This document shows positions 18,901 through 27,100 of a stretch of 64,000 nt of DNA, piece by piece. The position numbers were made by a program. The DNA comes from Podarcis muralis (taxonomy: Eukaryota), in contig NC_135673.1 of the NCBI RefSeq assembly GCF_964188315.1, positions 18,352,001 to 18,416,000 on the forward strand, read 5' to 3'. How positions within the stretch are numbered: position 1 is the first letter of the stretch; each line of letters opens with the position of its first letter.

Positions 18901-21900
18901 TAGGACATGCACTTGTTATGAATATGTGTTTACCTTTAACCTTATGCCAAATATTAAGCTTTCACACTAAAGGAATAAAAAGCTTGGTTTGTTATATGAA
19001 ATAGAAGTGACAGAATGTATATAAATGCTGCTTCAGATGGCTAAATAAACAGTTTGTGAGGCAACATCTCACAATAAATACATACACACCTTGATCGAAA
19101 GAGTAACAGAAATACCTATTCTCAAAAAGCCTGTAGAAAAGTGAGCTTGGCAATTTTGCCACTGAAACCCACACTAAATAGCAAAGCAGAAATGGAAAGC
19201 GAACACTACCTGTTCTTAAGCACGTGTATGCTGATCTTGAGAGCCTTGCATAAGTTCTGTTGAAGCTAGCAAACTGACTACTTGGGAATTGGGGGTTTAA
19301 AATACAATGGTACCTCGGGTTAAGTACTTAATTCATTCTGGAGGTCCGTTCTTAACCTGAAACTGTTCTTAACCTGAAGCACCACTTTAGCTAATGGGGC
19401 CTGCTGCTGCTGCCGCACCGCCGGAGCACGATTTCTGTTCTCATCCTGAAACAAAGTTCTTAACCCGAGGTACTATTTCTGGGTTAGCGGAGTCTATAAC
19501 CTGAAGCGTATGTAACCCAAGGTACCACTGTAATATTGAACTAATACCTCCTAGTAGAGAAGTGAGGGGCTTTGAAATGGAACAGTTCCTGCCCATTTCT
19601 CACCTTTGTCCATCTAGTGAAAAAATGGCTAAAACTGGTCATCCAGTTTGCTTCCCACTCTGATGTTTTGCTTAACAAAAGGATGAAAGCCTGTGATAGT
19701 GAGCCATTAACTGTACCTGGCCATCTTTTCATCTGCTCTCTGCCTTATCTCTTTCCTGCTGGTGAAAGTGCTTATAAGGGATATACACACACACACACAC
19801 GTAAAAATAATAGTGCAACACTTTTGAGTTCAGTGGGGCTTACCCTCAGGTAACTGTCCATGCAGGATAGCAAGAAATGATGAAACTTACCGGAAGAATC
19901 AAGAAATCAAGATAACAAACTTTTTATAAAAGACTATTGACAGATAAATTACAGATAAGATCATTGGCAGGATAAGATAACAGATAAGATCATTGGCAGG
20001 ATTATTGTAATAACCTGCAGTTTTATAAGAGTATATATTTAAAGCAGATGAATAAATGAGCAAATTAAGTTAATTTGGATATGCAGAGGATATTAAAAAA
20101 TTTAAGGAACCGCAGAAAGGGGGGGAAGGAAGTCAAGCTTTTAAATGTTAAAATGATTGTAAAATTAGTGGAATGTATAAAACTAGTGAAATGTTTAAAC
20201 TTGAAAAGTATAAATAAAATTTGTAAAATTCGGAGGGTGGGGAGAACAGTCTTCCACGCTCGGCCAGATTTTTCCCACCTGGTAACTTGGAGGCTGAAAA
20301 GATCTGGTTCATCCTACTAGGCTTTTCAGAGCTGGCCCTTGATGCCTTGCTGGATTCCAGAATGGCATCAACCAATCGTATTTGCAGCATGTCCTGGAAT
20401 CCTTACCTGTCTCCTTGTTCACACTTTGGGCTGTAGGCTCTTCCTCGCAACATTCATGGTTTTCCTCAGTTTCTTCAGGAAGGGATAAATAAGGAGCTTA
20501 ATGTCAGCACCCTCAAAAAAACAAGTAACCTCTCTGAGCAGTGTTTTTTATTGCCTGGGTAGGGATCCATTGAATTCCTATCCTACGTACAAACTTTTGT
20601 TTGAGGGAGTTGTGTTGTCCTACTCCCCTGTCATACATAGATTCACTCCTTGGAATTAAAATTGGGCTCTCGCAGCTCTCAGGGGTCCCCATTTTTATCC
20701 ACAACTCAGCGCGCTTCATCAGGATAAAGTTGTGCTATCCCCACACCTTTTCTCGTGCCTAAACTTCATTCAGATGTAAGATGCATAACTGGTAAGCTGA
20801 GCAGAGCTGATTGTGCATCAAAAACCAGCCACACAAATACAATCACAAATAAAACGCCTTAAGTTAATTATACGTTCCAAAGTTACTCTCACTGGTTTCT
20901 CAAAGGTGATCCTTCCTTGCCAGAGGTGACCTGATTAAAACGCCTTTCCCGGTTTCTCTTTGCAGGATGGGAAATAACAGCATAGGTCAGCATTCCAGGC
21001 TAATAAGCTCACGTTCCCTGAGCTGTGGTGAGAGAATCTCCTGTGACACCCATGCCCCAACAGGCATTGCAGCTCTGGCTGATGTGCCACAGTTGTGTCA
21101 GTAGGTGGCAGAAAGGAACAGACTATGTCTACGCTCAGTGTTCTGCAACCTGTGAGAATTCAGAATGATTAGTAGCCTGACAGGTGTCCCCAACTTCCTC
21201 AAATGTGATATTAAGGTTCCTGCAAAAATCATGTTCTGTCTGTCCAAAATTGAGGGGTCTTAGCAAGTTTCTAGTCTTCATGGTTCTGAATAAAGGGCTG
21301 AATTATAAGGGATGCAGGTGGCACTATGGGTTAAACCACAGAGCCTAGGACTTGCCGATCAGAAGGGTGGCAGTCCGAATCCCCGTGACTGAGTGAGCTC
21401 CCGTTGCTCGGTCCCTGCTCTTGCCAACCTAGTAGTTTGAAAGCACGTCAAAGTGCAAGTAGTTAAATAGGTACCGCTCCAGCAGGAAGGTAAACGGCAT
21501 TTCCATGCGCTGCTCTGGTTTGCCAGAAGCAGCTTAGTCATGCTGGCCACATGACCCGGAAGCTGCACGCTGGCTCCCTCGGCCAATAAAGCAAGATGAG
21601 CACCGCAACCCCAGAGTCGGCCACGACTGGACCTAATGGTCAGGGATCCCGTTACCTTTAAATAGGAACACAATAAACTGCATTCTACTGAGTCATCCCT
21701 TTGCAGTCCACCTAGCTTAGTACTGTCTGCTGTGATTGGCAGGGCTGCCCAGAGTTTCAGGCAGGGAGTCTTTCCCAGCCTTTCCTGGAGTGGTCAGGGA
21801 TTGAACCTGAGACAGGTATCTGCACACCAATGAGATGATCCACCAATGAGCTCCAGGCAGTGCCTTCCACAATTTCCCCACCCGGTAGAGCAACTTTCAA

Positions 21901-24122: not shown

Positions 24123-27100
24123 GCACGAATTGTTCAGAAAGTGCCCAAAGCTTTCTTTTCAAATTTTGTAATGCGCTTAATTTTTCAGTATGCCATGATG
24201 CACAGACCAGTATCTAAACGAAGTTTTTTAACTGTGTGCGAAATACATATATTTTTTTCCACTTGCAGTCCACCACTCTGAAAAATACTGAAGCAAGTCC
24301 TCAGCACATCACTACATTCAGCAAGCGCAACTCATTGGAGTGCATACATCAATGCTATGTGACCAGTGTATGAAAAGCCAGCAAATATAACTTGAAAAGA
24401 TAACTTCATTTACCAAACTCTCAACTGGAGAGCCTGTTACTTCCCTGAGTGACAATGTCTTGAAAAGATCTATCTAGTGATGTGTATCAGATGACACATA
24501 AGGACAGGAAAACTTCCCACAGATTTGGTCATTCTTGAACTTGCTCCAGTGAGTCATTCAAAGTGGTTAGGAACAGCAAACAGGCTTGGTCGCATATGGG
24601 TTTCAAAGCATGACCTTAAAGGCAAAACCCTCCACAACTTAAGACTGATAGAGGAATACATCTTTTGTGTGTACTACCAATGCTGGTTCAACATCAAAGT
24701 AAAATACTCCTGGGATGGAATGCCCACATCTTGTTTCAGGTGCAGTGAGTTAGGCTGCAAAAGAAGGTTATAGTGGGTGCTGTTTTGCCACCCATCCAGC
24801 GCTCAGCATGGTATGCATTCAGGAAGATGATAATTCAGACACTCTTGTGCTCAGATGACAGTGAGGAGAGCTGGTGTCCGAAAGATGATTGACTTGAGGG
24901 GTGGAGATCATGACACTCTGGGAGATCTTTCTGTAAATCTTAGAAATATATCTTTCACAAATCCCAAGTGTTTTGTCCCTGTTGGAACTGATAGATGAAC
25001 CAATGCAAGACTTGATTAAACTTGTTTAAGTTTCTTATTAGCTGATGTCATTACCTTGTAATTAGAAAACATTAGAAAGTAATGTTGTATGTTTAGTAGG
25101 ATATGCTTTATGTAGAGAAACTAAAAATTTTATAGGATTACCAGGCACTTTCAGAAGTTAAACTTAAAATTCTTTGGTTTTCTGAGAGCAGTTTATGTGC
25201 TTTTTAATGAAATGTGGATTGAGCAAGCTAAATGTTGTCCAATCATAAAAATAATAGCAGATTTTAATTCCCCAGACCCAAAAACATATTTTTAAGACCC
25301 CTCACTGAAGAAATTTGGAAAAATTAACTTTCAGTCCTTAAAATGACATGCCCTAAATTGTGGTGGGCCTCTTGCGGCGTCTTGAATTGTGATGCTTATG
25401 TAAACTGATAAAAACACGCAATAAAATTACTAAAAGGGGGTAGGGTGGGGTTGCATAAGCAATCATTTTATCCCAGAAAGCTGCTGTTGCTCTGGGGGAG
25501 ACCAGAGGCCACCTTCACACCATACTTTAGTATGCTATTATACCACTTTAAACAGTCATAGCTTCACCCAAAGAATCCTGGGAGCTATAGTTAAGGGTGC
25601 TGAGAGTTGTTAGAAGACCACCTGTCTCCCTCACAGACCTGCATTTCCCAGTGTGTGTGGAATAGGGGCCTCCTAATAACTCTCATACTCTTAAACTATA
25701 GTTTAAGTATGATTCTTTGGTGAAAGCCAAGACTGTTAAAATTGGTATCCAGTGCAGTCATAAAATTCTAGGAGCCCCCAAGAGTCCTGGGAGCTGGAGT
25801 TTGTCCAGAGTTGTTAAGAGGACCCCTATTCCCTTCCCTCCCCAAGCTACAATTCCCAGGGTGGTATAGCAGTCCCACATCCTACAGTACTTTGGGAAAT
25901 GTAGCTTTGGGAGGGGAATAGCAGACTGTCTTAACTCCCATCACGCTGAACAAACTACAGCTTCTAATTGATCGGTGACGTGGTAATGTTATGTTGTATT
26001 ATTTATGCAAATTGATTTTCTCTGGAGTTAAAGATCTGACTGGGACAAACCTTCTATGCTGAACTCGTATTTTGCACAATTTGTTTATGGTGTTTGTTTG
26101 ATAATGTGTGGTTTGCTATGCCTAATAAAGGATTGACTTTTTTAAAAAAAAAACAACTACAGCTTCCAGAATTCATTAATGGAAGCTGTAACTATTTAAA
26201 GTAGTATCATTGCATTTTAAATGTCTGGTATGAATATGGTCATATCACAAGCAGACAAGAAGAGCTCAGATAGGTTAGCCCAGGACCTGGCTTCTCCCTG
26301 TTTTTTGTACTGGGACTCTAGCAAAAGAATTCCCACCCACCCACCCCCAGTGTTGTTCTGCTTGCAGCAGTTGCCAGCCATCCCTTTTTGGGTTTCTCTT
26401 GAGGGATGAGGTGTTGTCACCACCCAAAGATTTGAGAGTACAGCGGTGGTGTTTATGTTTCATGTGCGGCATGGATCTGATTGTCAAAGCTCCCCAACCG
26501 CCAGGTAAAATTAAAAAAGAAAAAAATGTGTTGATGTTGTAAGATGTGACAAGACTGGTAAAATTGGGGAATTGCCCAAACTAGCAAATTCTAGTTTCTA
26601 GGAGTGAACCATGCTAAGACAGCATTTTGCAAAAGATCTCTGTGCCCTGTCCAGAGGCTATGAGGTTTGTGGCTCTCTTGGAGCTTGTGAAGACCCAGAT
26701 TCAAACCCTGGCATTGCCAGCAAGTTGCTCGGAAGCTGGGGATGGGTGGTAGATAAGTGGCCCCGGGGTCAATCCCTGGAGCATCTCCAGGTGAGACTGG
26801 GAATGTCCCCTGTCTGAATTGCTAGGGAGCTGCTTCCAGCCCTTCTGGACAACACTAAGCTAGACGAACCCAAGGTTGTGACTCTGCATAAGGAGACCAG
26901 GATTCAAATCCCCTACTCAGCCATGAAGCTCACTGGCTGACCTTGGGGCAGTCGCTTGCTTCTTAGCCTATCCTACCTTGTAGGGTGGTTGTTGGGATAA
27001 AATACACTCACTACCTTGACTTTCTTGAAGGAAAGGTGGGGCATATAAACCTAAGGACGAGGCCAAAGAGATAGAGAGAGCACTATTTATTTACATCAGA

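What the first reader, a model, noticed from the sequence alone, without database searches (positions are those of the whole stretch)
20722..26140. Unannotated-looking spliced non-coding snoRNA host (SNHG7-like) with tiny exons and no CpG island
Several 20-45 nt segments are bounded by strong splice sites (donors 20792, 20986 or 21028, 22058, 22379; acceptors 20965, 22021, 22333). A TCT/5'TOP-like start CCTTTTCTC (20746-20754) has GATAAA about 24 nt upstream, and AATAAA lies at 26124. snoRNA host genes are typically 5'TOP and non-coding (established). Unlike the four other promoters in the window there is no CpG island. So either a CpG-poor TCT promoter drives it or the snoRNA is processed from MRPS2 read-through, which would couple a cytosolic rRNA modifier to a mitoribosomal protein gene (inference). 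Only one snoRNA was found, whereas human SNHG7 hosts two (SNORA17A and B).
Basis: partly seen in the sequence, partly recalled or inferred. Interest (0 to 1): 0.66.

Follow-up and report, generated by a model that had tools for sequence, protein, structure and literature searches.

The report
Lizard-type SNHG7-like snoRNA host gene
This stretch holds one ordinary, well-conserved small nucleolar RNA (SNORA17) that most likely sits in an intron of a short non-coding host gene matching human SNHG7, so it is a routine ortholog whose exact exons still need RNA data.

Summary
One full-length H/ACA snoRNA of family SNORA17 lies at 21051-21185 (+): Rfam 90.8 bits against a cut-off of 29. There is no second copy.

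It lies between the end of MRPS2 (+, stop 16438-16440) and the last exons of a FAM69/DIPK1 kinase gene (-, 27320-28725). It converges on that gene, as human SNHG7 does on DIPK1B. SNHG7 ortholog is therefore the best reading.

The listed splice sites exist, with two exceptions: the donor given as 22058 is at 22059, and acceptor 22021 is weak. Such acceptor-donor pairs occur about once per kb per strand across the window, so the downstream mini-exons are not above chance.

The upstream half is better supported. It consists of a TCT/TOP run at 20746-20754, donor 20792, acceptor 20965 and donor 21028, ending 23 nt before the snoRNA. This arrangement is rare in the window and in simulations, but the thresholds were set after the fact.

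The AATAAA at 26124 lies inside a roughly 190-nt insert flanked by direct repeats. It is one of 20 such hexamers.

There is no CpG island. MRPS2 read-through stays untested. This is an ordinary ortholog of low novelty.

The parts
20723..20728 (+). TATA-like hexamer GATAAA, 24 to 19 nt upstream of the C at 20747
   Evidence: Read directly from the sequence. It counted as 'TATA-like' in the motif test. It departs from the TATA consensus at its first base and lies closer to the start than the usual position (the usual spacing is recalled).
20746..20754 (+). Pyrimidine run CCTTTTCTC: a TCT/5'TOP-like candidate transcription start, with C at 20747
   Evidence: Of the window's 391 TCT motifs (203 on +, 188 on -), this is the only one that also has a TATA-like hexamer at -36 to -19 and a donor of at least 9 bits within 20-200 nt. 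The start site itself is not shown.
20747..20791 (+). Candidate exon 1 (45 nt), ending at donor ctg|GTAAGC (GT at 20792)
   Evidence: The donor scores 9.23, in the top 0.49% of 6493 GT sites. No acceptor of 7 bits or more lies in 20500-20792, so the segment reads as a first exon rather than an internal one. It is not covered by any within-window repeat.
20966..21027 (+). Candidate exon 2 (62 nt, or 20 nt if the weaker donor at 20986 is used)
   Evidence: Acceptor 20965 scores 11.97, in the top 0.13% of 9658 AG sites. Donor 21028 scores 7.85 and donor 20986 scores 5.49. The chain 20792 > 20965 > 21028 is rare and ends 23 nt before the snoRNA.
21051..21185 (+). SNORA17-family H/ACA snoRNA, with H box AAAGGA at 21112-21117, ACA at 21180-21182 and a predicted 3' end at 21185
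   Evidence: Rfam RF00560 scores 90.8 bits against a gathering score of 29, E 3.5e-16, over model positions 1-132 of 132. The boxes were read from the alignment and the sequence. The 5' hairpin folds at -25.7 kcal/mol, z -1.97.
21345..21808 (.). Interspersed repeats (SINE-like) inside the snoRNA-bearing intron
   Evidence: Self-blastn: 21345-21660 has 73-90% copies at 52058-52299, 59246-59585 and 60019-60308, and 21678-21808 has 4 further copies.
22022..22058 (+).
   Evidence: Acceptor 22021 scores 2.25 (27.6% of AG sites do as well). The donor is at 22059, not 22058, and scores 7.55. Stronger acceptors nearby are 22091 (9.91) and 22184 (8.13).
22334..22378 (+). Candidate exon 4 (45 nt), or the start of a terminal exon
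   Evidence: Acceptor 22333 scores 7.16 and donor 22379 scores 10.14. ATTAAA at 22462 is followed by a stretch that is 76% G+T, the most poly(A)-site-like context of the six hexamers in 22380-27000.
23272..24122 (.). 3' fragment of a non-LTR retrotransposon with an (ATT)15 tail
   Evidence: It is 92% identical over 773 nt to 62879-63650 on the other strand. The ATT array lies at 24077-24122. The ORF at 23198-23992 has no Pfam hit. The Atlas places it nearest to unnamed chordate clusters, and the nearest named cluster has RVT_1 in 20% of members.
25965..26154 (+). Insert of about 190 nt flanked by a perfect 12-nt direct repeat and ending in AATAAA (26124-26129) plus A10.
   Evidence: The direct repeat AACTACAGCTTC lies at 25953-25964 and 26155-26166. 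The A10 run after the hexamer is read. This looks like a retroposed insert with a target-site duplication.
15820..16440 (+). Upstream neighbour: last coding exon of MRPS2 (stop 16438-16440)
   Evidence: Pfam Ribosomal_S2, E 2.1e-39. The first canonical AATAAA comes 1435 nt after the stop, at 17875.
27320..28725 (-). Downstream neighbour, convergent: last two coding exons of a FAM69/DIPK1-family kinase gene
   Evidence: Pfam PIP49_C, E 2e-64 (27320-28150), and PIP49_N, E 8e-23 (28258-28725). A minus-strand AATAAA at 27091-27086 lies 226 nt past the stop.

Best explanation
The interval holds the ortholog of the non-coding snoRNA host gene SNHG7 in a non-human vertebrate whose repeats look squamate. 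The proposed mechanism has five steps.

1. RNA polymerase II starts on the + strand near 20747, in a CpG-poor region, at a pyrimidine (TCT/5'TOP-like) run. This is inferred from motifs.
2. The transcript is spliced through very short exons. Exon 1 (20747-20791) and exon 2 (20966-21027) are reasonably supported. The exons after the snoRNA and the 3' end are open.
3. The single SNORA17 H/ACA snoRNA (21051-21185) lies in the second intron, 23 nt past donor 21028. Its position is shown; its intron status is inferred.
4. By established knowledge of H/ACA snoRNPs, dyskerin, NHP2 and NOP10 (with NAF1, later replaced by GAR1) bind the nascent snoRNA. After splicing and debranching, exonucleases trim the intron down to the snoRNP, which guides pseudouridylation of 28S rRNA.
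5. The spliced host RNA has no long ORF. By analogy with GAS5 and human SNHG7, it is a short-lived by-product whose level follows growth state through its 5'TOP start.
For: - The snoRNA is full length and far above the family cut-off: 90.8 against 29 bits, model positions 1-132 of 132. An H box and an ACA box sit at the expected places.
- The flanks were identified by Pfam: MRPS2 upstream on the same strand, and a FAM69/DIPK1 gene downstream on the opposite strand, tail to tail.
- Human SNHG7 neighbours and overlaps DIPK1B and holds SNORA17A and SNORA17B in its introns (PMC11405852, figure 3 legend and text passages).
- Human SNHG7 is called a 5'TOP gene, with its snoRNAs in introns 2 and 3 (PMC7244715, passages). 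Here the snoRNA is also in the modelled intron 2.
- Only 1 of 391 TCT motifs combines a TATA-like hexamer with a donor of at least 9 bits. It lies 304 nt upstream of the snoRNA on the same strand. Thirty simulated 64-kb strands gave a mean of 0.067.
- Chains of donor >= 9, then acceptor >= 10, then donor >= 7.5 number 12 in 128 kb (5 if a TCT motif is also required). Forty simulated strands gave a mean of 1.6 per 64 kb (0.4 with TCT). One of the chains ends 23 nt before the snoRNA.
- The candidate exons lie outside within-window repeats.
- No + strand ORF longer than 71 codons lies in 20722-22500.
- A chicken gas5-like non-coding host also combines a TATA box with a 5'TOP start (PMC2653536, passage).
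Against: - No transcript data exist, so no splice junction, start site or 3' end is shown.
- Thresholds were chosen after seeing the sites, so their rarity is overstated.
- GATAAA is not a consensus TATA and is about 6-7 nt too close to the proposed start (spacing recalled).
- The downstream mini-exons are at chance density, and acceptor 22021 is weak.
- There is one snoRNA, not the two of human SNHG7.
- The DIPK1 paralog (A, B or C) was not determined.
- Minimum-free-energy folding of the whole snoRNA (z -0.17) and of its 3' hairpin (z +0.92) is no better than shuffles. Structural support comes from the covariance model only.
- Guide-target pairing with 28S rRNA was not tested.
Confidence: 0.7

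Rival explanations
1. The host gene is real, but its structure differs from the reader's model. Exons 1 and 2 hold. After the snoRNA, the transcript would use another acceptor (22091, 22184 or 22333) and end early at ATTAAA 22462. The reader's exon 3, the long 3' part to 26140 and the AATAAA at 26124 would not belong to it.
For: - Acceptor 22021 scores 2.25, against 9.91 for 22091 and 8.13 for 22184.
- ATTAAA 22462 has the most G+T-rich downstream stretch (0.76) of the 6 hexamers in 22380-27000.
- The region 22.5-26.1 kb is largely repeats and inserts.
- AATAAA 26124 sits in a repeat-flanked insert.
Against: - Donor 22379 is the strongest in the region at 10.14, which suggests that splicing goes on past 22378.
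- Transposon-derived poly(A) signals are often used by non-coding RNAs (general knowledge).
- No RNA data exist.
Confidence: 0.35
2. The snoRNA has no promoter of its own. It would be processed from MRPS2 read-through or MRPS2-to-20966 chimeric transcripts, which would tie a cytosolic rRNA guide to a mitoribosomal protein gene.
For: - The snoRNA is on the same strand as MRPS2, 4.6 kb past its stop.
- No canonical AATAAA or ATTAAA occurs for 1435 nt after that stop; only the variant AGTAAA occurs, at +376.
- No CpG island lies upstream of the snoRNA.
- Acceptor 20965 is very strong and could accept an upstream donor.
Against: - A first-exon-like unit (TCT run plus donor 20792, with no acceptor of 7 bits or more before it) lies just upstream.
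- Conserved pairing with DIPK1 fits an independent SNHG7 unit.
- The 4.3 kb between the genes is partly repeats.
- Nothing shows that MRPS2 lacks a working poly(A) site.
Confidence: 0.1
3. The snoRNA is a dead or retroposed copy in intergenic DNA, and the splice-site matches around it are chance.
For: - Mini-exon candidates occur at chance density.
- snoRNA retrocopies are known in vertebrates (mentioned in passages of PMC2817437).
Against: - The match is full length and high-scoring, with both boxes intact.
- No A-tail follows position 21185, and no within-window repeat covers it.
- It lies beside a DIPK1 gene, as the human locus does.
- The upstream chain is rare.
Confidence: 0.04

Closest known systems
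Human SNHG7 (non-coding host of SNORA17A and SNORA17B/SNORA43)
   Same: - It hosts a SNORA17-family H/ACA snoRNA.
- It is convergent with a FAM69/DIPK1 gene.
- It has a pyrimidine-run start, and SNHG7 is stated to be 5'TOP.
- The snoRNA is in the second intron of the model, while human snoRNAs are in introns 2 and 3.
- It has no long ORF.
   Different: - It has one snoRNA, not two.
- It has no CpG island at the start. That human SNHG7 has one is recalled, not checked.
- It lies directly downstream of MRPS2, whereas in human the two are recalled to be about 1.2 Mb apart.
- Exon sequences were not compared, because no human sequence was used.
GAS5 and the chicken gas5-like host: 5'TOP non-coding multi-snoRNA host genes
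   Same: - A TATA-type element is combined with a 5'TOP start, as in the chicken gas5-like gene.
- The exons are short and non-coding, and the snoRNA is the conserved part.
   Different: - GAS5 hosts many box C/D snoRNAs, whereas this gene holds a single H/ACA snoRNA.
- The TATA-like element here is GATAAA, at a shorter distance.
Rfam RF00560 SNORA17 (clan CL00029)
   Same: The match is full length at 90.8 bits, with an H box and an ACA box.
   Different: There is nothing notable. About 14 alignment columns are flagged as non-standard pairs.

Membership tests
SNORA17 H/ACA snoRNA (Rfam RF00560) | Score at or above the family's gathering score, over the full model | tested here: met
   90.8 bits against 29, over model positions 1-132 of 132, E 3.5e-16. 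The same hit scores E 6.1e-17 in the regional scan.
SNORA17 H/ACA snoRNA (Rfam RF00560) | H box (ANANNA) in the hinge, and ACA three nucleotides from the 3' end | tested here: met
   AAAGGA at 21112-21117 aligns to the consensus hinge, and ACA lies at 21180-21182. The mature 3' end at 21185 is predicted, not measured.
SNORA17 H/ACA snoRNA (Rfam RF00560) | Guide pockets complementary to the 28S rRNA target sites | not testable with these tools
The only target statement seen is that SNORA17B is predicted to guide 28S Psi4938 (PMC11541003, one passage).
SNHG7 ortholog | Hosts a SNORA17-family snoRNA in an intron of a spliced polymerase II transcript | tested here: inconclusive
   The snoRNA is present. 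It is flanked by donor 21028 upstream and by several acceptors downstream. No transcript evidence exists.
SNHG7 ortholog | Conserved position next to DIPK1B, in convergent orientation | tested here: met
   A FAM69/DIPK1 gene lies on the opposite strand, tail to tail (Pfam PIP49_C 2e-64 and PIP49_N 8e-23). The human arrangement is taken from PMC11405852. The paralog (A, B or C) was not resolved.
SNHG7 ortholog | Non-coding: no conserved or long ORF | tested here: inconclusive
   No + strand ORF above 71 codons lies in 20722-22500. Exon by exon, each candidate exon has at least one open frame and at least one frame with stops. The joined transcript was not built or translated.
SNHG7 ortholog | Two snoRNAs (SNORA17A and SNORA17B), as in human | tested here: not met
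   One hit was found in the whole window at gathering score. No further H/ACA hit appeared at E <= 10 in 16400-27400. Self-blastn found no copy. This feature may be specific to mammals rather than defining.
5'TOP / TCT-initiator gene | Transcription starts at a C followed by an uninterrupted pyrimidine run | not testable with these tools
   The motif is present at 20746-20754. The start site needs CAGE or 5'RACE.

The most novel reading that the evidence does not exclude
In this lineage the SNHG7 ortholog would have only a CpG-poor, TATA-like plus TCT core promoter, or none at all. A sizeable share of SNORA17 would then be made from transcripts that begin at the MRPS2 promoter 8 kb upstream and splice into acceptor 20965. 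Output of a cytosolic rRNA pseudouridylation guide would thus be tied to a mitochondrial ribosomal protein gene. The single snoRNA would be the ancestral state, before the SNORA17A/B duplication seen in human.
Probability: 0.1. Interest if true: 0.4.

Novelty: new member of a known kind. Interest (0 to 1): 0.2.

Why it matters
It matters little beyond annotation. The result places a SNORA17 gene and its probable non-coding host in a non-mammalian genome, in the same position next to a DIPK1 gene as in human. That fits the view that snoRNA host genes keep their position and their snoRNA while their exons drift (abstract of PMC11405852). If RNA data confirmed a CpG-poor TCT start or MRPS2 chimeras, the locus would be a small, neat case of how host-gene promoters change while the snoRNA stays.

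Tried and rejected
- **Whole-snoRNA fold.** The minimum-free-energy fold did not give the two-hairpin shape (z -0.17; 84 of 200 shuffles fold as well). The 3' hairpin alone has z +0.92. Thermodynamic folding is therefore not informative here, and the covariance model carries the structural evidence.
- **Mini-exon density as evidence.** Rejected, because candidates occur at about 1.05 per kb per strand across the window.
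- **CpG-richer patch at 19300-19600 as an alternative promoter.** Rejected. It is a young repeat with 90-93% copies at 57148-57381 and 58570-58808.
- **Pfam on three ORFs inside the interval** (22621-23052, 23198-23992, 24495-24773). No hit in 3 of 3.
- **Atlas look-up of 22621-23052.** Inconclusive: recognition is below the stated level and the families are scattered.
- **Acyltransferase catalytic motifs, to name the gene beyond the DIPK1 gene.** None were found in a coding context. Pfam on its putative first exon gave no hit. The idea that it is AGPAT2 rests on recall only.
- **ARAGORN.** It found no tRNA in the window.
- **Literature.**
  - The chicken snoRNA paper gave no homolog of human ACA17 or ACA43 in the passages found.
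  - The Xenopus paper has 0 occurrences of SNORA17, SNORA43 or SNHG7 in its main text.
  - One broad search for non-mammalian SNHG7 returned nothing relevant among its 10 listed papers.
  - PMC1869039, on synteny of non-coding host genes, is not held.

Full report
**What is in the interval**

An Rfam scan of the whole window at gathering thresholds gives two hits. One is a full-length SNORA17 H/ACA snoRNA at 21051-21184 on the + strand: 90.8 bits against a cut-off of 29, E 3.5e-16, model positions 1-132 of 132.

Reading the alignment against the sequence places an H box, AAAGGA, at 21112-21117. The ACA box is at 21180-21182, so the mature 3' end should be at 21185.

A permissive scan of 16400-27400 (E up to 10) finds no second H/ACA snoRNA among its 16 hits. 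Self-blastn finds no diverged copy of the snoRNA anywhere in the window.

**Surroundings**

Upstream on the same strand, the ORF at 15820-16440 is the C-terminal part of MRPS2 (Pfam Ribosomal_S2, E 2.1e-39). Further upstream lies PPP1R26 (Pfam PPP1R26_N, E 9.5e-203).

Downstream on the opposite strand, 27320-28150 and 28258-28725 are the last exons of a FAM69/DIPK1-family kinase gene (PIP49_C 2e-64 and PIP49_N 8e-23). A minus-strand AATAAA lies 226 nt past its stop. The snoRNA and the kinase gene thus converge.

In human, SNHG7 holds SNORA17A and SNORA17B in its introns, and the neighbouring DIPK1B overlaps it (PMC11405852, text and figure 3 legend, passages only). This shared position is the strongest argument that the host is the SNHG7 ortholog. 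I did not resolve which DIPK1 paralog this is.

**Splice sites**

I scored sites with simple donor and acceptor weight matrices. Their frequencies are recalled approximations, not a trained model. All 6493 GT and 9658 AG sites of both strands were scored.

| Site | Type | Score (bits) | Share of sites scoring as high |
|---|---|---|---|
| 20792 | donor | 9.23 | 0.49% |
| 20986 | donor | 5.49 | 5.9% |
| 21028 | donor | 7.85 | 1.5% |
| 22059 | donor | 7.55 | 1.8% |
| 22379 | donor | 10.14 | 0.32% |
| 20965 | acceptor | 11.97 | 0.13% |
| 22333 | acceptor | 7.16 | 4.4% |
| 22021 | acceptor | 2.25 | 27.6% |

Acceptor-donor pairs enclosing 15-250 nt, with both scores at least 7, number 134 in the window (78 on +, 56 on -). 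That is about 1.05 per kb per strand. The four such pairs on the + strand in 20.7-22.4 kb are what chance gives. Tiny exons bounded by good sites are therefore not evidence on their own.

**The upstream half**

This part is better supported.

- Of the window's 391 TCT motifs (203 on +, 188 on -), 7 have a TATA-like hexamer at -36 to -19 and 22 have a donor of at least 9 bits within 20-200 nt. Only one has both: the one at 20747, 304 nt upstream of the snoRNA. Thirty simulated 64-kb strands gave a mean of 0.067 such sites.
- Chains of donor >= 9, acceptor >= 10 and donor >= 7.5 number 12 in 128 kb, real coding exons included. Five remain if a TCT motif must precede the first donor. Forty simulated strands gave means of 1.6 and 0.4 per 64 kb. 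The chain 20792 > 20965 > 21028 ends 23 nt before the snoRNA.
- No acceptor of 7 bits or more lies in the 290 nt before donor 20792, as expected for a first exon.

These thresholds were set after seeing the sites, so the rarity is overstated. GATAAA also differs from TATA at its first base, and it lies at -24 to -19 rather than near -30 (spacing recalled).

Human SNHG7 is described as a 5'TOP gene with its snoRNAs in introns 2 and 3 (PMC7244715, passages). A chicken gas5-like host combines a TATA box with a 5'TOP start (PMC2653536, passage). Both fit the model.

**The downstream half**

This part is weak.

- ATTAAA at 22462 is followed by a stretch that is 76% G+T, the best poly(A)-site context of the six hexamers in 22380-27000. 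The transcript may therefore end there.
- From 22.5 kb onward the interval is mostly mobile-element debris:
  - a retrotransposon 3' fragment at 23272-24042, 92% identical to a copy at 62879-63650;
  - its (ATT)15 tail;
  - dispersed repeats at 25503-25655.
- The AATAAA at 26124 lies in an insert of about 190 nt. The insert is flanked by a perfect 12-nt direct repeat (25953-25964 and 26155-26166) and followed by A10. This is the mark of a retroposed piece. It is also one of 20 hexamers on this strand in 16.4-27.4 kb.

**CpG content**

No window between 20.4 and 21.2 kb reaches island criteria: GC is 0.41-0.51 and CpG observed/expected is 0.16-0.65. Islands lie at about 600-1400, 12800-13200, 16000-16400 and 46200-47200. 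The third coincides with the MRPS2 coding exon.

**Coding capacity**

No + strand ORF in 20722-22500 exceeds 71 codons.

The spliced model was examined exon by exon only. That covered stops and ATGs per frame, Rfam matches over each exon (chance-level only) and within-window repeats (none). The joined transcript was left out: it was not assembled, translated or searched.

**MRPS2 read-through**

MRPS2 has no canonical poly(A) hexamer for 1435 nt after its stop; only AGTAAA occurs, at +376. Read-through cannot be excluded. However, the first-exon-like unit at 20747-20791 and the conserved pairing with DIPK1 favour an independent gene.

**Origin of the window and limits**

I do not take the window for human. 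Its gene order differs from the one I recall for human 9q34.3. It also carries (ATT)n-tailed retrotransposon fragments, SINE-like repeats and hairpin repeats with sub-threshold matches to non-human microRNA families.

No human sequence was fetched or compared. The N run was left untouched.

Cross-species conservation of the exons and the paralog identity of the kinase gene therefore stay unchecked.

**Verdict**

The interval holds a routine SNORA17 gene in what is most likely the SNHG7 ortholog. The snoRNA and its synteny are solid, exons 1-2 and the TCT start are plausible, and the later exons and the 3' end are unproven.

Noticed in passing
window 2474-5914 (+): A single 1147-codon ORF is PPP1R26 (Pfam PPP1R26_N, E 9.5e-203). 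The gene order in the window is PPP1R26, MRPS2, SNORA17 host, then the DIPK1-family gene on the other strand. From memory, human MRPS2 and SNHG7/DIPK1B lie about 1.2 Mb apart on 9q34.3, and a single inversion would relate the two orders. This is recalled and not tested.
   Followed up: partly
window 17394-17509, with copies at 38372-38487 and 6634-6728: A palindromic hairpin repeat matches itself on both strands. It gives sub-threshold Rfam hits to mir-5408, mir-3160, mir-3524 and mir-727 on both strands. It looks like a MITE-type repeat rather than a microRNA gene.
   Followed up: partly
window 54074-54145 (+): An Rfam tRNA hit sits just above the cut-off (30.1 against 29 bits), but ARAGORN finds no tRNA in the window. 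It is probably a tRNA-derived repeat relic.
   Followed up: partly
window 19300-19539, 57148-57381 and 58570-58808: Three copies of a young repeat are 90-93% identical. The repeat is relatively CpG-rich and could be mistaken for a weak promoter patch between MRPS2 and the snoRNA.
   Followed up: yes
window 22621-23052 (+): A 143-codon open frame just after the last candidate exon has no Pfam hit. The Atlas look-up was inconclusive. Its origin is unexplained; I suspected a transposon remnant.
   Followed up: partly
window 46459-46875 (+), at the CpG island 46201-47200: An ORF with a hydrophobic N-terminal stretch starts at the island that probably also serves the DIPK1-family gene on the other strand. 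It reminded me of the first exon of AGPAT2. Pfam gave no hit, and no acyltransferase catalytic motif was found in the window.
   Followed up: partly
   Followed up: no
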